A stretch of DNA of 64,000 nt, taken from NCBI GenBank assembly GCA_036507075.1, contig DASXQR010000017.1:1-64000 (forward strand). Reading direction: 5' to 3'. Of the stretch, positions 30,001 through 39,000 are shown in pieces. Position 1 is the first letter of the stretch. Each line of letters begins with the position of its first letter. The position numbers are program-made. The stretch is from Acidobacteriota bacterium. GTDB taxonomy: Bacteria > Acidobacteriota > UBA6911 > JACQSX01.

Positions 30001-33000
30001 CCGCGCGCTGCTTTTCCTGCTTCCGCTAATCTCCTTCTGCGGAGTAGTGATCTATCTGCTTGTTTCGGGGGCTTGGCGGCTGAACACGGGAGTACTTTCG
30101 GGCCTGACGCTTCTTTCTCTGGCAATCGCGAACAGCGTCGCGAACATGGCAGGCAGCAGGGAGGAACCGGAAAGAATCGCGCTGCGTCGACGACTGATCG
30201 GTGCTCGACGGTATTTTCAGCAGGAGTTAAAAAAGCCTAATCCCGGGCTGAAGGACAGTTGGTTCCCGTATCTGATTGCTTTCGGCCTGGGGCGTAATGT
30301 GGACCGCTGGTTTCGGGCCCATGGGCCCCCGGCGGGGACGTCGAGCGGGGGTGACTCGACCTGGGGAACTTCCGCATCTTCCACTTCGAGCGGTCACAGC
30401 CCGGGGAGTGGTTGGACCGGTGGCGGCGGCGCGTTTGGCGGCGCGGGGGCGAGTGGAACGTGGGCGGCGGCAGCTGGATCCTTTGCTTCCGGAGTTTCAT
30501 CTCCCAGTTCCGGGGATTCCAATTCCGGGGACTCAGGAGGAGGGAGTTCCGGTGGTGATAGTAGTTCCGGCGGCGGGGGCGGAGGTGGTTGGTAACGCGC
30601 GTGGTTCCCTTTGGGCCTCTGTCTTGAGAAAATGGAGGCTGTAATGACTGGATTGGGATCGCCGGGAGGATGTCGGCGAAGGTTTCTGCCAGGCGGTCAA
30701 TTGCTTCACCGCACAGCCGCTGAGGCGACAGAGTTTACGCAGAGATAACAAACTCGGCGGAAACTCGGCGGACTTTGCGGCTCTGCGGTGAATACGATTG
30801 AGGTCATGCAGAGCCGATCCGGTCCAGCTTCGCTGTTACAGGCAACCGGTTCCAAAGGCGCCGACCAAATGTCAGAAGCCCCGCAAAGTCCGGACGAGCG
30901 AAACCTGTTTCAATCTTTTCGCCGCCTTGACAGCTTCAGACCCGACTATCGCTTGCGCGTAGCCGGTTCATTGCTGCTCCATCTGGCATTGATCCTCGCC
31001 GTCTTCACAATCGAATTCATTCGCATCATGCTTCCGCCGGATCCGGATGAAGACATATTGACCATGGTGAGACTTCCGCCGCTGCGTGTTCCCGCGGCTA
31101 TTCGGAGTATCAAGACGCGGCAAAGAGAGAAAGGAATGCCGCTTCCTTTACCCACAGCGGATGCTTCTTCTCAAACGGCGCAGAAAAGGCCGGAGCCGCT
31201 TAAGAGTGAAAAGGCAAAACCCCCCGCAACAAATCGGCAGCAGGATGCGGTGCTGGCTGATTTGGAGAATGTCCAGGAGTTCCTGGATCCAAAGCTTGAA
31301 CCGTCTCATATTGCCGAAGTGATCCGATTCTACCTGGGAATACTGGGGCGCCGCCCGGAGCCCGGTGGATGGACGACCTGGACCGATGTATTGATTGAAT
31401 CCAATTGCGCCGGAGCGAGCTGCGACAAAGTCCTGCTTGATATTTCCGAGTATTTCGTCAGCTCGGAGGAATTTCGATTGCGGTTTGGCGGGGTTCGTTC
31501 CAACCAGGAGTTCGCCGATCTGATTTATCACAACGCTCTTGGGCGCTCTCCTTCAGCGTCAGAAGCGAAGAAGTGGCTGGAAGCTCTGGACACCGAGCAC
31601 ACCACCCGCGGCCAGATGGCGCGCGCGGTAGTGACATCGCCAGAGTGCGTGGAGCATTACAAATTCGATGTGATGGTGATTCTGGCGTACATTGCCGTGC
31701 TCCATCGCATGCCTGAAGAAAACGAGTTCAATGGTTGGAGGCGAAATCTTGCCTCGGGCAATCTGGATTTCCCAACTTTGCTGCAGACTCTGAGCAATCT
31801 GGCGGTGAGAAGTGGTTAAGCGGAGGTGGTTGGCGGTCTTGGCGCCTTGGTCGTCAAAAACAAAAGCTTGAACCGCCAAGAACGCCAAGAACGCGAAGAA
31901 ATTTGGGTTAGATGGCGGAGATTAACCATTTCTGACGATTGGCTGAATTGAACAACTGGACCGTCCAACGAGCAGTTGCGGGATCAAGGGAAATTAAGGG
32001 CCTTTGCGTTCTTGGCGCTCTTGGCGGTTCAATCCCTTTAAATACTCGTGCTCAGCGCCCCCCGACAATATCCTCTAACCTCAAGGGGCCATCGCGGTCC
32101 CGGTCCTTTGTCTTGTCGTGATAAGAGTGGCATTCCGTGCATCCGGAGCGGACACGCGTGGAAGAATTGTGGCACCGCAGGCACTCTGCCCGGCCGGGCA
32201 AGAGGACATCACGCGTCTTCGTGCTCTCTCTCGCGCCACTGTGGCAGGAAATGCACTGAAGCATCCTGTGCGGTCCATGCGCGAATCGACTGTGGTCGTA
32301 CCAGCGCACGCGAATTTCCGGATCCAACACTTGCGGCAGCCTTGCTGAGGCCCGGCTGGTGTCGCGGATAGGTGCGGCAGTCCTGTAATCCCGGCCGGGA
32401 AGATTCTCCAGTAGATGGCATTCCCGGCAGCGGACGCTGAACAAATATCTTTCGGCTGAGGCGATCTGCCTTTCCATCCATGCCGGCAGGTTGCGCGGCG
32501 CTTCTTCCACCATCATGCTGAGAATGGAAAGCTGGCGGGCGCGATTCCAGTCAACAGGACGTCTCCATTCATTGGGATTCTTACCCGCGTACTTTGAAAA
32601 CGCGATTCGGATAAAAGCGTCCACGATTTCTGGTTTGCTGTGCGGCGCCTGCTCGTCGATGCGTTCCTCAAAGGCGAGGGAGTGGCACGTTTGACAGTCG
32701 CGCTGGAAATTGACCGGAAGCATGTACGCTCTCCGGGCATCCAGGTGATGGCAGGCAACGCAATCCAGTTTTACCGGGCCATGCGGCCCGCGCAGGTCCG
32801 GCCGAAGATGCAGTTGGTGGTTCAGCTTTATCTTGGCAAGATCGGCTGTCTTGTCGCGAAGGAGCCGAAATTCCGGATGATTGGCCTCAAAGCTGGTAAT
32901 CGATTTTTCATACCCGAGGACGGGGCGAACGGGCGGCGCGACGGGTGACGAATTCCGCATTTGGAATGCGCCGGCAGTGGTGGATTTGGATTGGCCGGGG

Positions 33001-36000: not shown

Positions 36001-39000
36001 ATGCTGGTAAAGTATCCCTTGCCCATGCGTCCGATTACGTCATTGTGTTTGACATCGGTACAGGCGCGCACGCAGCGGTCACAAACAATGCAGGCGCTGT
36101 GATCGATGGCAATTGTTGGATTGGAGCGGTCGCCTCCTTTGGAATAAGCACGCGGCGAAAATGAAGGGTGCTCGATCCCCATTTTTTGCGCCAGCACTTC
36201 GAGTTCGCAGTCGCCGTATTCTCTATGACGTTCACAGGGAACGGGGTGATCGGCCAGCAACAGTTCCACCAGTGTTTTTCGCGACTGCTCCACGCGGTCG
36301 CCGCGCGTGTACACCTTCATGCCGTTTTCAGCCTGACGGACACATGAAGCCGCAAATACGCGGGCGCCTTCCACCGCCACGACACACACCCGGCACACCC
36401 CCACGGGAGCGAGGTTTGGCTGGTGACAGAGCGCTGGTATGGAAATGCCCAGAGCCAGGGCGGCTTCCCACAAAGTTGTTCCTTCAGCGACGGTAACCGG
36501 TTTGTCGTCTATTGTCAGGCTGATCGTCCGCGCTTCCGTGCTCACTGCAGGCTTCCCTCCGCTTTAAAGCAGGTTCCGGAAGGACACGTGCGTCGCACCA
36601 TGTGCTCTTCGACTTCCTGGGGAAAATGTTTGATCACCGAAGTAATCGGATTGGCGACCACCTGGCCCAGGCCGCAAATGGAAGTCATCAATAAAGTGTC
36701 GGCAAGCCGGTGGATGGTTTCCAAATCCTCTTTCGTTCCGCTTCCGTGGGTAATGCCGTAAATGATATCCACCATTTTCTGAGAACCAACGCGGCAGGGA
36801 ACGCACTTACCGCACGATTCATTGCGGTAAAAACGAACCTCGTTGAGAGCCAGATCGATCATGCATGTGCCTTCGGCAATCGCCACGATTGCGCCCGATC
36901 CAAGCATCGCTCCGGCCTGTGCCAGTGTCTTAAAATCGAGCGGGATATCGGCCATCGATGCAGGCAAGAATCCAGAGGAAGGTCCTGACGGGGCAAAGGC
37001 TTTCATTTTTCTGCCGCCTGAAATACCGCCGGCCAGTTCGAAGATCACGCGAGAAGCCGGCGTGCCCATCGGAATCTCAAACACCCCGGGGTTATTAACA
37101 TGTCCGCTGACCGCCACCCACTTCAATCCGGTGAAATCTGGTGCTCCCTGTGCCTTGAACCATTCGGCGCCCTTGATCAAAATAACGGGCACATAGCAGA
37201 GAGTCTCCACGTTGTTGATCACGGTCGGCTTGTTCCACAAACCGTTGGTTACCGGGAAGGGTGGCTTGTTGCGTGGCTGTCCCCGCCGGCCTTCGATCGC
37301 TTCCAGCAGCGCGCTCTCTTCGCCCTGGATGTATCCTCCCGGACTGACGAAGACTTCCAGATCAAAATTCATTCCTGACCCCAGAAGGTTCTTTCCAATC
37401 AATCCATCGCCCCGGGCACGAGCGATTTCCTGCTGCAGTATCTCTATCTGTTCTTCGTATTCGTGGCGGATATAGATGATCCCTCGCTGGGCGCCGGTCA
37501 CCACGCCTGCTGCGATCATTCCCTCGATCAGCAGATAGGGAAGATTTTTCATGATTTCGCGGTCTTTGAAGGTTCCCACTTCGCTTTCGTCTGCGTTGCA
37601 AATGACGTACTTTTCTCCGGCGGAGGCGTTGCGAACCAATTCCCATTTCAATCCTGCCCCGAAGCCCGCGCCTCCCATACCTTTCAAGTTGGCCGCCTTC
37701 AACTTTTCGATGGTTCCGGTAAGGTCACGTGAAGAAATCAGCGTTTTCACAGCGCCATACCTTTCACGTTCGTCTGCATAAGGGTCGGTCAGAAATCTGC
37801 GGTTCAGGGGGGGGAATTTTTGAGGTTCGGGAAGGTTGCCTCGGATGGCTGCGCCGGCGAGTTCCAGCGCTTCGTCGATTGATTTCCGCGCGTAGATATG
37901 ATCATTGACGGCAAAGGCGGGGGCCCCGTCGCACTGGCCCAGACACGAGACCGGACGCACCACTACTCCTTCGGCATGCTGATCGCGTACCATCTGGTTT
38001 ACCTGCCGGCGCAGTTGGTCGCAGCCGTGGAGGTGGCAAGGCATGTCGGCGCAGATGTGGATCTCAACCGGAGGCGGAGGCTGCAGGCGAAAATGGGGAT
38101 AAAAGCTCGCCACGCCGTACAACTCATAAACGGGAACGCGGATCCGGGCAGAAAGCTGCTGAAGCTCCTTCTCGGGAATGTAGCCAAATCTATGCTGGAT
38201 GGCCCGGAGCTCGTTAATGATCATTTGTCCCTTTCGTGACGCTTCTTTAACTCTTGCGATCCGGTAAGTGTGGGAGAAGCAGGTCAAGCCAATAAAGGAA
38301 AACTACGCCGCCACTACCGAGCGAGTTTGACAGAAGTAGCTGAATTTTATCGCAAAGCAAGCACCACGTATGTAATAAAAATAGCGGAGGAAAACCAGCT
38401 TGGTTGTTCATCGCACCCTGAACATCGCCGCACGATGGATCATACTGTCTGCGATCGTCGTGTTTCCGCGTTTCCTGCTTTCTGAAAGTACTGAATACCG
38501 TAACACCGAACCTCAGACTGCCGGAGCCGCGGTGGCTTACACGGGAGCCGGGTCGTGTACGTCCAGTAACTGCCACGGCAGCGTGTGGCCCAGGACTGGA
38601 AGTCGCATCAAGCAGAATGAATACAAAATATGGTCAGGCAAGGACCGGCATGCCAAGGCCTACAACGTGCTTCTTGAGCCTCGCTCCAAGCTGATTGCGC
38701 GCAACCTGGGAATTGATCGGGCCGAGACCGCAGGCAAATGTCTCGACTGCCACGCGCTGAACGTTCCCACGGGCGAGCAGGCGAAGAGCTTTGATCTTTC
38801 CGACGGTGTAAGCTGCGAGTCCTGCCACGGGCCTGCGGCCGGCTGGCTGGGGCCGCACACAACACGAGGGCAGACCCATCAGCGGAACCTTGCCCTCGGA
38901 ATGTACGAGACAAAAGATCTGCCCAAGAGGGTAGAGCGTTGTCTTTCCTGCCACATAGGCACCGAGAAAAAGACTGTCGACCATGAAATGATTGCTGCCG

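What a model noticed while it worked through the whole genome (the two positions that open the first line are those of the whole stretch)
32052..38224. NuoEFG-like NADH module, new four-His membrane protein and decahaem cytochrome in one operon: a quinone-free electron ex [...]
Four overlapping or abutting genes encode a NuoE-NuoF fusion (g00450), a NuoG-N-terminus/2x cNMP-binding/2x[4Fe-4S] ferredoxin protein (g00449), a family-less 296-aa membrane protein with four invariant histidines spaced 14 apart on two transmembrane helices (g00448), and a membrane-anchored cytochrome with 10 CxxCH (g00447). I read this as a new respiratory complex that passes electrons from cytoplasmic NAD(P)H through Fe-S clusters and a novel di-haem b subunit straight to periplasmic multihaem cytochromes, by-passing the quinone pool and gated by a cyclic nucleotide. 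If true it is a new inner-membrane route for extracellular or periplasmic electron transfer, found well beyond this genome. [...]
Evidence so far: Pfam rows, sequences, 10 CxxCH, TM segments. g00448 has no Pfam/NCBIfam row; 1384 homologues at E<=1e-8, nearly all 'hypothetical', from Acidobacteriota, Planctomycetota, Methylomirabilota; 3 of the 120 listed carry a precomputed PF01292 (cytochrome b561-type) hit. In 40 aligned homologues H80, H94, H274, H288 are invariant, H264 and H268 >=90%. AF2 model pLDDT 85.5, all-helical, no PDB match at E<=0.001 (best 0.11). Synteny: G048 and G009 (two other families) keep g00451-g00450-g00449-g00448-g00447 and, in G048, the 8-haem LVIVD protein g00452; G070 and G056 keep a shorter set. 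Complex prediction g00448 + g00449(320-725): ipSAE 0.65, best of 3 controls 0.00; g00448 + g00447: 0.68, best cont [...]
(Added by a program. Inside this text positions count along the whole contig: contig position 1 is position 1 of the stretch shown here. "Call 12" and the like, gene names such as g00115 and contig names such as C1 are that model's own, and its searches are not shown. The text may have been shortened before it was handed on; [...] marks where a part breaks off. The agent that wrote the report below was given it as the finding of a first reader that could run no searches.)

Follow-up and report, generated by a model that had tools for sequence, protein, structure and literature searches.

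The report
NADH-to-periplasmic-cytochrome transmembrane electron conduit
Four tightly linked genes appear to build a membrane complex that carries electrons from NAD(P)H inside the cell, through iron-sulfur clusters and a probable two-haem membrane protein, to a ten-haem cytochrome outside the inner membrane; related gene sets are widespread but nobody has yet tested what they do.

Summary
On the minus strand at 32052-38287 lie a NuoE-NuoF fusion, a HoxU/NuoG-N + 2 cNMP + ferredoxin protein, a 296-aa five-helix membrane protein with no Pfam or NCBIfam hit, and a membrane-anchored cytochrome with 10 CxxCH. One correction: the ferredoxin part has four conserved [4Fe-4S] motifs, not two.

The membrane protein defines a large family: 4176 clusters at 50% identity. 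Its signature is W-x3-H-x13-H on TM3 and again on TM5, found twice in 36/36 close and 68/68 distant members.

The order of the four genes is kept in 74-78 of 80 related loci. In 68 more distant loci:
- A multihaem cytochrome is always nearby, adjacent in 66/68.
- The NAD(P)H-oxidising module is swapped: NuoEF, Pyr_redox flavoprotein or FNR-like.
- The membrane domain is sometimes fused to the cNMP-ferredoxin part (5 loci) or to the flavoprotein (8 loci).

This supports a regulated, NOX-like route from NAD(P)H to periplasmic cytochrome. Haem binding, direction of flow, the quinone bypass and cNMP gating remain inferred.

It is not wholly new. A 2023-24 preprint named a matching core PtdE/F/G, "function completely unknown", and a 2026 preprint describes a similar triad.

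Verdict: new variant of a known but uncharacterised kind. Interest 0.68.

The parts
36542..38224 (-). g00450: NuoE-NuoF fusion. It carries a [2Fe-2S] thioredoxin-like domain, an FMN/NADH site and an N3-type [4Fe-4S]. An alternative TTG start lies at 38287.
   Evidence: Pfam PF01257, PF01512 and PF10589. TIGR01959 scores 458.7 bits, below its cut-off of 558.65. Homologues align from residue 23 of the TTG-start reading. No hydrophobic segment (KD19 max 1.49). A separate canonical NuoF lies elsewhere in the genome, next to NuoH.
35901..36545 (-). g00449 residues 1-215: HoxU/NuoG-N-terminal-like. It carries a [2Fe-2S], two [4Fe-4S], and an N5-like motif with only three ligands.
   Evidence: PF13510, PF10588 and PF22117. 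NF005745 HoxU E 1.8e-50. Cys 40/51/54/68, 152-162 and 195-205 are kept in 70-71/71. The motif is H100-x3-C104-x8-C113, and position 107 is Q in 62/71.
34911..35858 (-). g00449 residues ~230-545: two cyclic-nucleotide-binding domains.
   Evidence: PF00027 E 2.3e-40. FGE...R[ST]A cassettes: E352 and R361 in 71/71, E481 in 71/71, R490 in 69/71. C264, H291 and C355 are also 71/71.
34419..34877 (-). g00449 residues 557-709: four-cluster [4Fe-4S] ferredoxin domain (HydN/DmsB-like).
   Evidence: Four Cys groups: C569/572/575/579, C605/608/613/617, C636/639/642/646 and C679/682/690/694, each in 67-71/71. HydN NF007658 E 1.1e-15. In other genomes this domain is fused to the membrane domain.
33481..34371 (-). 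g00448: five-helix membrane protein, the putative di-haem b subunit. Predicted N-terminus in, C-terminus out, with a cytoplasmic helical insert at 130-262.
   Evidence: No Pfam or NCBIfam family. AF2 pLDDT 84.5. K+R-rich loops at 1-9, 61-75 and 253-267. Family of 4176 clusters at 50% identity.
34090..34146 (-). TM3 motif W76-x3-H80-x13-H94.
   Evidence: Invariant in alignment A3 across all variants. The motif occurs exactly twice per protein in 36/36 close and 68/68 distant members.
33508..33564 (-). TM5 motif W270-x3-H274-x13-H288.
   Evidence: Same calls as for the TM3 motif (79, 87, 101).
32052..33464 (-). g00447: decahaem cytochrome c with one N-terminal membrane anchor and a periplasmic body.
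   Evidence: 10 CxxCH. 10 further invariant His. TM at 31-49, with 9 K+R in residues 1-30. 10 motifs in 67 of 70 complete homologues.
38400..39746 (+). Divergently transcribed c554-like cytochrome with 4 CxxCH. It is the probable periplasmic partner and the PtdD-like position. Its start is uncertain.
   Evidence: PF13435 E 2.2e-11. 4 CxxCH. Present in 57 of 80 related loci.
40055..43813 (-). 1252-aa cytochrome with 8 CxxCH and an LVIVD repeat; a candidate outer or surface component.
   Evidence: PF08309 E 3.3e-21. 8 CxxCH. Present in 43 of 80 related loci.
43813..46083 (-). CarboxypepD_reg domain plus a porin-like outer-membrane beta-barrel.
   Evidence: PF13620 E 6.2e-18 and a weak Alginate_exp hit. 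The nearest ESM Atlas clusters are auto-named alginate-export or porin proteins, score 0.99. Present in 34 of 80 related loci.

Best explanation
The four genes encode one inner-membrane complex, an NAD(P)H:multihaem-cytochrome-c transmembrane oxidoreductase.

Proposed path:
1. NADH is oxidised at the FMN of the NuoE-NuoF fusion (sequence-level inference).
2. Electrons pass down the Fe-S chain of g00449. That chain is a HoxU-like part followed by a four-cluster ferredoxin that docks on the cytoplasmic face of g00448 (supported by natural fusions).
3. They cross the membrane through two bis-His haems b held between TM3 and TM5 of g00448. H80/H274 would hold the haem on the inner side and H94/H288 the one on the outer side (inferred from motif and topology only).
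4. They enter the decahaem g00447 in the periplasm.
5. From there they go to the c554-like tetrahaem and, in many genomes, to an LVIVD multihaem protein and a porin-like barrel in the outer membrane.

Energetics and control (inference). No proton-pumping subunit is present. Outward electron flow is helped by the membrane potential. The complex is therefore most likely a non-conserving, regulated electron outlet with NOX/ferric-reductase logic. The two cNMP domains lie between the NADH module and the membrane-proximal ferredoxin and act as the on/off control.

No quinone is needed in this scheme.
For: Domain content and conserved cofactor ligands.

Location. Cytoplasmic for g00450 and g00449: no hydrophobic segment or signal sequence. 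Periplasmic for the haem c domain: one N-in anchor.

g00448:
- Five helices.
- Positive-inside counts give N-in/C-out, so both W-x3-H-x13-H helices run in the same direction.
- Only W76, H80, G84, H94, G118, G121, P129, W270, H274 and H288 are invariant across variants at 20-29% identity.
- Weak hits to di-haem families in some members: PF01292 in 8/36 (best 1.6e-7, one member over the cut-off), PF01794 in 7/36, DUF4405 in 14/36.

Synteny in 80 loci: ferredoxin part 78, cNMP 77, decahaem 76, NuoEF 74, HoxU part 74.

Distant loci, 68 examined:
- Cytochrome with >=4 haems within 6 kb: 68/68.
- Adjacent on the same strand: 66/68.
- NAD(P)H module found in 41/68, of three unrelated kinds: Pyr_redox 21, FNR-like 15, NuoEF 5.
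- Fusions: cNMP-Fer4-TM in 5, Fer4-Pyr_redox-TM in 8.
- In L090 and L091 the flavoprotein is instead fused to the cytochrome.

Signalling neighbours: an FHA-adenylate/guanylate cyclase (L100), a Ser/Thr kinase (L098) and a PP2C (L094). The window's genome has 3 class III cyclases.

The genome also has a separate canonical NuoF beside NuoH, so this NuoEF is an extra copy.

Complex prediction, g00448 + g00447 + 2 haems:
- Weak support: 0.58 (runs 0.60/0.58/0.57), best of 3 controls 0.00.
- The mark was reached by 116 of 157 solved complexes and 2 of 215 mismatches.
- At 0.60 or under it was reached by only 18 of those 157, and by both mismatches that passed.
- The runs agree in >=89% of contacts; partner pLDDT >=70.
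- I used my own alignments with haem riding along, so the calibration holds only roughly.
Against: No experiment shows haem in g00448.

Family and fold are unresolved:
- The window's own protein hits no di-haem family, even at E<=1.
- Profile-profile comparisons with MsrQ-type and PF01292-type alignments are not significant: Prob 0.3-0.6% and 12-25%.
- No PDB fold match for the whole model or for the N-terminal four helices.

The N5-like cluster motif of g00449 lacks one Cys in all 71 sequences. This could break or alter the Fe-S chain.

Gaps in the survey:
- No NAD(P)H module was found within 6 kb in 27 of 68 distant loci.
- 14 of 68 lack the cNMP/four-cluster protein.
- I picked the loci from the hit tables; they are not a random sample.
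- 3 full-length close loci (L042, L059, L079) show no decahaem hit.

Other points:
- The complex score is only 'weak support'.
- A quinone site on g00448 cannot be excluded.
- The authors who describe a like triad in an Fe(II) oxidiser propose inward flow.
- RNA evidence is thin: nine short contigs in one soil RNA library, with no control for DNA carry-over.
Confidence: 0.62

Rival explanations
1. Same complex, but a quinone takes part. g00448 would be the di-haem anchor of an SQR/Fdn-like NAD(P)H:quinone oxidoreductase. The decahaem would act as a quinol oxidase beside it, as in CbcL/CymA-type systems. The route would then not bypass the quinone pool.
For: Many di-haem b anchors carry quinone sites: FdnI, NarI and SQR type B (recalled knowledge). 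Some family members weakly hit PF01292. The genome has two NuoH genes, so it has a quinone-based chain. The authors of 10.64898/2026.01.22.701106 consider a quinone link for their triad.
Against: The cytoplasmic ferredoxin and flavoprotein modules are fused to the membrane domain or to the cytochrome. A multihaem cytochrome is adjacent in 66/68 loci. That pattern is what a direct wire would need and is unnecessary for two enzymes that share a diffusible quinone. Only 10 columns are invariant across variants: 4 His, 2 Trp, 3 Gly and 1 Pro, with no evident polar quinone-site residues. This last point is weak.
Confidence: 0.17
2. Electrons flow inward. The complex would take electrons from periplasmic cytochromes (Fe(II), reduced humics, H2-linked cytochromes) and reduce NAD(P)+ or another cytoplasmic acceptor.
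For: NuoEF/HoxEFU-type modules are reversible (recalled). A like triad stands in the Fe(II) oxidiser Ferrigenium straubiae, is expressed in all tested conditions, and its authors suggest inward flow.
Against: This is inference from established bioenergetics. Moving electrons from the positive to the negative side works against the membrane potential, and NAD+ (-320 mV) lies below typical c-type haems and Fe(II). No pmf-consuming subunit is encoded here. All three swapped modules are NAD(P)H-oxidising flavoproteins.
Confidence: 0.1
3. The complex is mainly a redox sensor or signalling device. The cNMP and FHA domains and the neighbouring kinases and cyclases would report the periplasmic or extracellular redox state, with no bulk electron flux.
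For: cNMP domains occur in 54/68 distant loci. FHA domains sit on the cytochromes or flavoproteins. A cyclase, a Ser/Thr kinase and a PP2C are encoded next door in some loci.
Against: A full FMN/Fe-S NADH-dehydrogenase module, 8 Fe-S motifs and 10 haems are costly for a sensor. No output domain (DNA-binding, kinase) is fused in the window's operon. Outer-membrane porin-cytochrome genes co-occur.
Confidence: 0.06
4. g00448 is not a haem protein. It would be a scaffold or a metal (Fe/Cu) transporter that merely anchors the ferredoxin protein and the cytochrome. Electrons would cross the membrane by some other route or not at all.
For: No family or fold match. The Ferrigenium authors read their five-TM protein as a binding platform.
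Against: Two parallel helices each carry W-x3-H-x13-H. These are almost the only invariant residues across 20-29% identity. The i/i+14 spacing is that of bis-His di-haem bundles such as cytochrome b and NOX (recalled). No other membrane-spanning redox protein is encoded in any variant.
Confidence: 0.05

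Closest known systems
ptdABCDEFG operon (bioRxiv 10.1101/2023.11.21.568154; passages read)
   Same: The preprint describes PtdE (cNMP-binding with 4Fe-4S), PtdF (ferric-reductase-like TM protein), PtdG (periplasmic decahaem), PtdD (tetrahaem), PtdB (porin) and a NAD(P)-linked oxidoreductase. The window has the same cast in the same core order. Planctomycetota loci with just this penta/tetra/deca layout hold members of the g00448 family, at E 1e-40 to 1e-54 against profile A3.
   Different: The NAD(P)H module differs. Here it is NuoE-F plus a HoxU-like domain fused to the PtdE-like protein, instead of the FNR-like PtdC. The outer cytochrome is an 8-haem LVIVD protein, not a pentahaem. 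The preprint calls the function 'completely unknown' and gives no mechanism. I could not compare with its own sequences because its supplements are closed.
NADPH oxidase / ferric reductase (NOX, FRE) and the Fre-MsrQ two-component system (search listing only: PMC5676040, PMC11031084, PMC12525009; mechanism recalled)
   Same: The logic is the same: cytoplasmic NAD(P)H, then a flavin, then two bis-His haems b stacked across the membrane, then an acceptor outside. His pairs lie on the third and fifth helices at about i/i+14. Activity is regulated. Natural flavoprotein-TM fusions exist in this family too (L107, L109).
   Different: Membership is not shown. hhalign gives Prob 0.3-0.6% against MsrQ-type sequences, and Foldseek against SpNOX gives E 4.5. 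There are five helices, not six. Fe-S chains lie between the flavin and the haem. The acceptor is a multihaem cytochrome c, not O2 or MsrP.
Tmc/Hmc/Dsr-type transmembrane redox complexes of sulfate reducers, and Rnf-MmcA of Methanosarcina (recalled; MmcA from the search listing)
   Same: Periplasmic multihaem cytochromes c are wired through a membrane b-type cytochrome or Rnf to cytoplasmic Fe-S proteins, without free quinone.
   Different: The membrane subunits are different (NarI/HdrE-like or Rnf). There is no NAD(P)H flavoprotein of NuoEF type and no cNMP domains. Flow there is usually inward or ion-coupled.
Geobacter inner-membrane cytochromes ImcH, CbcL and CbcBA (search listings; details recalled)
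   Same: An inner-membrane gate to periplasmic and extracellular multihaem chains. CbcL joins a di-haem b domain to a multihaem c domain.
   Different: Those enzymes oxidise menaquinol and have no cytoplasmic NADH/Fe-S module. Their b domain is HydC/FdnI-type (PF01292).
Ferrigenium straubiae nonahaem (NHC) cluster (bioRxiv 10.64898/2026.01.22.701106; section 6.3.2 read)
   Same: A [4Fe-4S] protein, a five-TM protein with no InterPro match, and a membrane-anchored multihaem cytochrome with a cytosolic FHA domain. This is the same triad as my FHA-bearing variants.
   Different: Likeness rests on the description only; no sequence was compared. The authors do not see the TM protein as redox-active, and they propose inward flow to quinone. 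No NuoEF module is mentioned.
Acidobacteriota 'EET1' porin-scaffold-cytochrome clusters (bioRxiv 10.64898/2026.05.27.727921; abstract, section 9 and passages read)
   Same: Syntenic porin plus multihaem clusters in uncultured Terriglobia from peat, transcribed in situ. This probably corresponds to the LVIVD-cytochrome/porin pair that accompanies the operon in 34-43 of 80 loci.
   Different: The main text has no occurrence of NADH, Nuo, cytochrome b, inner membrane or LVIVD. The inner-membrane module is not treated. Identity with the window's genes was not tested.

Membership tests
NuoF / NuoE (complex I N-module; HoxEF-type diaphorase) | 2Fe-2S thioredoxin-like domain, FMN/NADH-binding 51K domain and N3 [4Fe-4S] domain | tested here: met
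   PF01257 5e-26, PF01512 1.7e-41, PF10589 1.5e-28.
NuoF / NuoE (complex I N-module; HoxEF-type diaphorase) | Equivalog score, and a place in a nuo operon with membrane subunits | tested here: not met
   TIGR01959 scores 458.7 bits, below its cut-off of 558.65. No NuoH/L/M/N lies in the operon. The canonical NuoF and NuoH lie about 120 kb away on the same contig.
HoxU / NuoG N-terminal Fe-S domain | 2Fe-2S plus two 4Fe-4S motifs | tested here: met
   PF13510 and PF10588. NF005745 HoxU E 1.8e-50. The Cys are kept in 70-71/71.
HoxU / NuoG N-terminal Fe-S domain | His-ligated cluster motif H-x3-C-x2-C-x5-C (motif recalled) | tested here: not met
   The motif here is H100-x3-C104-x8-C113. Position 107 is Q in 62, E in 8 and H in 1 of 71.
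Cyclic-nucleotide-binding domain (CAP/PKA type, PF00027) | Domain match, plus the phosphate-binding cassette with conserved Glu and Arg (motif recalled) | tested here: met
   PF00027 E 2.3e-40. E352 and R361 in 71/71, E481 in 71/71, R490 in 69/71. Ligand binding itself was not tested.
Four-cluster ferredoxin (HydN/DmsB/NrfC type) | Four Cys groups for four [4Fe-4S] clusters | tested here: met
   16 Cys, each in 67-71/71. HydN E 1.1e-15 and DmsB E 2.9e-13, both far below the equivalog cut-offs. It has the fold type but is not one of the named enzymes.
Prokaryotic cytochrome b561 / Ni_hydr_CYTB (PF01292) | Profile match over the four-helix di-haem domain | tested here: inconclusive
   The window's protein has no hit at E<=1. 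8/36 relatives hit (best 1.6e-7), and one reaches 31.8 bits against a cut-off of 30.1. hhalign gives Prob 12-25% over 23 columns only. The control, PF01292-type against FRD-type, gives 0.1%, so the test has little power.
Ferric reductase domain (PF01794; NOX, MsrQ) | Profile or fold match | tested here: inconclusive
   7/36 relatives hit weakly, best 8.9e-4. hhalign gives Prob 0.3-0.6%. Foldseek against SpNOX 8qt6 gives E 4.5. Neighbouring ESM Atlas clusters are auto-named 'ferric reductase like'.
Ferric reductase domain (PF01794; NOX, MsrQ) | Two His pairs on TM3 and TM5, about 13-14 apart (recalled) | tested here: met
   H80/H94 on TM3 and H274/H288 on TM5.
Ferric reductase domain (PF01794; NOX, MsrQ) | Six transmembrane helices (recalled) | tested here: not met
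   Five helices are predicted, with a 130-residue cytoplasmic insert between TM4 and TM5.
Ptd-type cluster (PtdC-G with PtdA/B) | cNMP + 4Fe-4S protein, then TM protein, then decahaem, in that order | tested here: met
   The same core with g00448-family members occurs in Planctomycetota penta/tetra/deca loci.
Ptd-type cluster (PtdC-G with PtdA/B) | [quoted passage not shown] | tested here: not met
   PtdC is replaced by NuoE-F plus a HoxU-like domain. The outer cytochrome is an 8-CxxCH LVIVD protein.
Ptd-type cluster (PtdC-G with PtdA/B) | Sequence homology to the preprint's own Ptd proteins | not testable with these tools
   Its accession tables are in closed bioRxiv supplements. The likeness rests on the description and on loci of the same layout.
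Multihaem cytochrome c | CxxCH motifs with distal His ligands, and export to the periplasm | tested here: met
   10 CxxCH plus 10 further invariant His. One N-in signal anchor. PF14537, PF14522 and PF09699.

The most novel reading that the evidence does not exclude
g00448 founds an unrecognised family of transmembrane di-haem b proteins with the signature 2 x W-x3-H-x13-H. This family would be the core of a widespread, modular class of regulated, quinone-independent NAD(P)H:multihaem-cytochrome oxidoreductases, a multi-subunit prokaryotic counterpart of NOX/ferric reductases.

Its NAD(P)H heads are interchangeable (NuoEF-HoxU, Pyr_redox, FNR-like). It carries cNMP and FHA control.

It would be the long-sought inner-membrane entry to extracellular and periplasmic electron transfer in Acidobacteriota, Planctomycetota, Verrucomicrobiota, Methylomirabilota and others. 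It would act as a gated electron outlet that spends membrane potential to regenerate NAD(P)+.
Probability: 0.45. Interest if true: 0.85.

Novelty: new variant of a known kind. Interest (0 to 1): 0.68.

Why it matters
How electrons leave the cytoplasmic membrane is the least understood step of extracellular electron transfer outside Geobacter and Shewanella. In those two organisms quinol oxidases do this job.

If this complex works as read, abundant soil, peat and aquatic phyla use a different principle. Electrons would go directly from NAD(P)H across the membrane by a NOX-like wire, under second-messenger control.

This would:
- Change how respiration on humics, particulate organic matter and metals is modelled in peat and soil.
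- Give a function to the Ptd and NHC clusters of marine and Fe(II)-oxidising bacteria.
- Add a new di-haem membrane protein family.
- Offer a compact part for engineering NADH-driven electron export.

The family signature and the natural fusions make the idea directly testable.

Tried and rejected
Fold and PDB sequence searches
- PDB fold search of the whole g00448 model: best VIA Z 9.7 (McpS sensor domain, rmsd 8.1); best Foldseek E 0.16. This is helical noise.
- Same search for the N-terminal four helices alone (AF2 pLDDT 92.9): best VIA Z 8.1 to a designed helix bundle; Foldseek best E 1.7; SdhD 3.6, SpNOX 4.5, cytochrome b561 6.6. No fold assignment was possible.
- Profile of A1 against PDB sequences: nothing below E 0.3.

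Profile-profile tests
- hhalign against MsrQ-type and PF01292-type alignments that I built from genomes of the window's phylum was not significant. The control pair was not significant either.

Apparent fusions and inserts
- Apparent 882- and 978-aa 'fusions' of g00448 in L017 and L031 are open alternative frames in high-GC DNA, not fusions.
- Long-insert family members (486-883 aa) carry no Pfam domain in the insert. One carries low-complexity repeats.

Searches that gave nothing
I used the genome search instead.
- A search with a distant homologue (L094) reached only Acidobacteriota-type proteins, not Proteobacteria.
- Earlier-findings look-ups returned nothing.

Promoters, terminators and reads
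- The promoter and terminator scan was at chance level.
- Read laying: parts of the stretch without cover in runs X3, X5 and X6 say nothing. The small shares in X4, X5 and X7 were not used for habitat.

Literature
- Searches for a description of the NuoEF-linked form found none.

Full report
WHAT IS THERE

Searches show four co-directional ORFs on the minus strand.
- g00450 spans 36542-38287 with a TTG start. Homologues align only from the ATG at 38224.
- g00449 spans 34368-36545, g00448 spans 33481-34371, and g00447 spans 32052-33464.
- The junctions are two 4-bp overlaps and one 16-bp gap.

Domains from Pfam and NCBIfam:
- g00450 is a NuoE-NuoF fusion (PF01257, PF01512, PF10589). Its NuoF equivalog score is 458.7 bits, under the cut-off of 558.65.
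- g00449 starts with a HoxU/NuoG-N-like Fe-S domain (NF005745 E 1.8e-50). Cyclic-nucleotide-binding domains follow (PF00027 E 2.3e-40), then a Fer4 region.
- g00448 has no hit in either library.
- g00447 has 10 CxxCH.

The genome holds a second, canonical NuoF next to NuoH on the same contig, a further NuoH, and three class III cyclases. This NuoEF is therefore an extra copy, and cNMP signalling is present.

COFACTOR LIGANDS

I aligned g00449 with 70 homologues taken from related loci.
- All Cys of the [2Fe-2S] and of two N-terminal [4Fe-4S] motifs are kept in 70-71/71.
- The C-terminal part has four Cys groups (16 Cys, each 67-71/71).
- The His-ligated cluster motif is H100-x3-C104-x8-C113. 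The usual second Cys is Q in 62, E in 8 and H in 1 of 71. One ligand is missing throughout the family.
- Both cNMP cassettes (FGE...R[ST]A, motif recalled) are conserved: E352 and R361 in 71/71, E481 in 71/71, R490 in 69/71.
- C264, H291 and C355 in the first cNMP domain are also invariant. I have no explanation for this.

For g00447, 67 of 70 complete homologues have 10 CxxCH. Two have 9 plus a variant motif, and one is a 303-aa form with 5. Ten further His are invariant, which fits ten bis-His haems.

THE MEMBRANE PROTEIN

Family size:
- 1368 relatives at E<=1e-8 in the 90% clusters.
- A profile finds 4176, 2141 and 712 clusters at 50% identity at E<=1e-3, 1e-10 and 1e-30.

Shape and topology:
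- AF2 gives five membrane helices and a helical insert at 130-262 (pLDDT 84.5). The N-terminal four helices folded alone reach pLDDT 92.9.
- Mean K+R per loop over 36 sequences is 2.3 (N-terminus), 0.9, 5.3, 0.5, 3.8 (just before TM5) and 1.0 (C-tail).
- This gives N-in/C-out, with TM3 and TM5 parallel.
- H80 and H274 would then lie toward the cytoplasm, and H94 and H288 toward the periplasm.

Conserved residues:
- Across variants sharing 20-29% identity, the only invariant columns are W76, H80, G84, H94, G118, G121, P129, W270, H274 and H288.
- The motif W-x3-H-x13-H occurs exactly twice in 36/36 close and 68/68 distant members.
- H264 and H268, conserved among close relatives, are not kept in distant ones.
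- The i/i+14 spacing on two parallel helices is that of bis-His di-haem bundles such as cytochrome b and NOX. This is recalled knowledge, not tested here.

Family membership is unresolved:
- The window's protein hits no Pfam family even at E<=1.
- Of 36 relatives, 14 hit DUF4405, 8 hit PF01292 (one above the cut-off) and 7 hit PF01794, all weakly.
- hhalign against alignments I built from the window's phylum gives Prob 0.3-0.6% for the MsrQ type and 12-25% for the PF01292 type, the latter over 23 columns. A control between those two families gives 0.1%, so the test has little power.
- PDB fold searches give nothing convincing.
- ESM Atlas neighbours are auto-named 'ferric reductase like'.

SYNTENY AMONG CLOSE RELATIVES

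The 80 best loci are mostly Acidobacteriota. They also include MAGs whose records name Rokubacteria, Tepidisphaeraceae, Verrucomicrobiia, Binatia and one 'Actinobacteria'. Counts:

| Neighbour | Loci of 80 |
|---|---|
| Ferredoxin part of g00449 | 78 |
| cNMP part of g00449 | 77 |
| Decahaem | 76 |
| NuoEF | 74 |
| HoxU part of g00449 | 74 |
| Divergent c554-like tetrahaem | 57 |
| LVIVD cytochrome | 43 |
| CarboxypepD_reg barrel | 34 |

- Most misses are at contig ends.
- Three full-length loci (L042, L059, L079) lack a decahaem hit. In L080 the decahaem is displaced.
- The three parts of g00449 lie in one ORF in 70 of 74 loci.
- The barrel protein's nearest Atlas clusters are alginate-export or porin types.

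THE WIDER FAMILY (THE KEY RESULT)

Prevalence:
- Profile A1 matches 63 of 401 sampled genomes of the window's phylum. This tally includes the unpublished G049.
- Profile A3 matches 133 of 401 genomes of the phylum of G401. G401 is the genome of L001, whose record names Tepidisphaeraceae.

I fetched 68 loci across the E-value range, 28 from the first phylum and 40 from the second. I chose them myself, so they are not a random sample. I then scored neighbours within 6 kb.

| Feature | Loci of 68 |
|---|---|
| Cytochrome with >=4 CxxCH | 68 |
| Cytochrome with >=7 CxxCH | 67 |
| Cytochrome adjacent on same strand, <=400 bp | 66 |
| Four-cluster ferredoxin domain | 54 |
| cNMP domains | 54 |
| NAD(P)H-oxidising module found | 41 |
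| No NAD(P)H module found | 27 |

The NAD(P)H module comes in three unrelated kinds: Pyr_redox 21, FNR-like 15, NuoEF 5.

Pfam confirms the architectures:
- Pyr_redox_3 fused in front of cNMP-Fer4 (about 795 aa; L083-L085).
- A separate FAD_binding_6 + NAD_binding_1 + Fer2 protein (L105, L098).
- One polypeptide carrying cNMP-Fer4-TM (about 825 and 910 aa; L087-L091). 5 loci.
- One polypeptide carrying Fer4-Pyr_redox-TM (about 740 aa; L107, L109). 8 loci. These stand next to cytochromes with 11-38 CxxCH.
- In L090 and L091, a single protein with FHA, TM, 8 haems, TM, Fer4 and Pyr_redox.

What the fusions show:
- They tie the ferredoxin and flavoprotein to the cytoplasmic side of the membrane domain.
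- They tie the flavoprotein to the cytochrome.
- The ferredoxin lies N-terminal of TM1, which confirms the N-in topology.

Signalling genes recur. FHA domains sit on cytochromes and flavoproteins. There is an FHA-cyclase beside L100, a Ser/Thr kinase beside L098 and a PP2C beside L094.

OTHER EVIDENCE

Complex prediction of g00448 (A1) with g00447 (A2) and two haems:
- Weak support: 0.58 (runs 0.60/0.58/0.57), best of 3 controls 0.00.
- The mark was reached by 116 of 157 solved complexes and 2 of 215 mismatches.
- At 0.60 or under it was reached by only 18 of those 157, and by both mismatches that passed.
- Contacts agree in >=89% of cases; partner pLDDT >=70.
- I used my own alignments with haem riding along, so the calibration is only rough.

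Sequencing runs:
- Two soil DNA runs hold the stretch. One of them may be its source.
- One soil RNA library holds nine short contigs at 90-99% likeness (1 at 99% or more, 4 at 95-99%, 4 at 90-95%). The listed pieces with real cover lie on all four genes, and one bridges the g00448/g00447 junction.
- I could not control for DNA carry-over. This is only a hint of transcription of a near relative.

LITERATURE

- bioRxiv 10.1101/2023.11.21.568154 (passages read) names ptdABCDEFG:
  - pentahaem, porin, FAD/NAD(P) oxidoreductase, tetrahaem, cNMP protein with 4Fe-4S, ferric-reductase-like TM protein and decahaem;
  - found in marine Alpha- and Gammaproteobacteria, Nitrospirales and Planctomycetes;
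  - function 'completely unknown'.
  - Planctomycetota loci of just this layout hold g00448-family members. It is the only paper in the library using that name.
- bioRxiv 10.64898/2026.01.22.701106 (section 6.3.2 read) describes, in Ferrigenium straubiae, a [4Fe-4S] protein, a five-TM protein with no InterPro match and an FHA-bearing nonahaem.
  - The cluster is expressed in all conditions tested.
  - The authors did not see the TM protein as redox-active, and they suggested inward flow.
- bioRxiv 10.64898/2026.05.27.727921 (abstract, section 9 and passages read) reports transcribed porin-scaffold-cytochrome clusters in peat Acidobacteriota. It does not mention NADH, Nuo, cytochrome b or the inner membrane.
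- Searches found no description of the NuoEF-linked form or of the mechanism.
- The supplements of these preprints were closed. They may hold annotations that bear on this.

MECHANISM AND ITS STATUS

Shown by sequence and comparison:
- The cast of cofactor motifs.
- The sides of the membrane on which each part lies.
- The obligatory pairing of the TM family with multihaem cytochromes.
- The interchangeable NAD(P)H heads.
- The fusions.

Inferred:
- Two haems b in g00448.
- Outward flow. Outward electron movement goes with the membrane potential. Inward flow to NAD+ would go against both the potential and the redox span, and no pumping subunit is encoded.
- Direct haem b to haem c transfer without quinone.
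- Gating by a cyclic nucleotide, and by FHA/phosphorylation in other variants.

If this is right, the step conserves no energy. It would serve as a regulated outlet that regenerates NAD(P)+. It would feed extracellular acceptors through the porin-cytochrome genes, or feed periplasmic reductases. The Ferrigenium cluster lies by nirK, and Ptd was found in nod-transcribing bacteria.

VERDICT

The architecture and the generality are strong. The chemistry is untested.
- It is a new variant, NuoEF/HoxU-driven, of a kind already noticed in print but uncharacterised.
- The family signature and the module-swapping rule appear not to be in print in the library I searched.

Noticed in passing
window 36207-36248 (g00449 residues 100-113): The His-ligated [4Fe-4S] motif of the HoxU/NuoG-like domain lacks its usual second Cys in all 71 family members. 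The position is Q in 62, E in 8, and H only in the window. Either the cluster is lost or it is ligated in another way.
   Followed up: partly
window 35481-35756 (g00449 residues C264, H291, C355): Three residues in the first cNMP domain are invariant in 71/71 sequences. They lie outside the phosphate-binding cassette. That domain also carries a ~50-residue insert. They might form an extra metal or redox site.
   Followed up: no
L098, L100, L094, L083-L085, L087-L091: FHA domains are fused to the multihaem cytochromes, flavoproteins or cNMP-ferredoxin proteins of many variants. A Ser/Thr kinase, a PP2C phosphatase or an FHA-adenylate/guanylate cyclase is encoded next door. This suggests phospho-regulation of the conduit.
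   Followed up: partly
L109:7102-9555, L204:8103-10214, L206:338-3739: In Planctomycetota, the Fer4-Pyr_redox-TM fusion proteins sit beside cytochromes with very many haems: 26 CxxCH in about 700-820 aa, and 38 CxxCH in an 1133-aa ORF.
   Followed up: no
proteins P0191, P0136 (relatives of g00448): Some family members have the cytoplasmic insert between TM4 and TM5 expanded to 300-550 residues with no Pfam domain. P0191 carries many repeats of a short Ser-Pro-Leu-rich motif.
   Followed up: partly
L207:5445-8123, L195:7318-9576: Two loci show the g00448-like domain and 5-7 CxxCH in one open frame. This may be a CbcL-like TM-cytochrome fusion, or an artefact of my crude ORF calling in high-GC DNA.
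   Followed up: no
window 33300-33550, 33616-33806, 34384-34538, 35611-35829, 37424-37678: One soil RNA-seq library (run X6) holds short contigs that lie on all four genes (97-99.5% alike over these pieces by my count of other letters). One contig spans the g00448/g00447 junction. There is no control for DNA in the library.
   Followed up: partly
window 1-17300: The first quarter of the window appears to hold a ribosomal-protein (rplB-like onward), secY- and adk-like gene run. I judge this only from the N-terminal translations printed; no family search was run on these ORFs.
   Followed up: no
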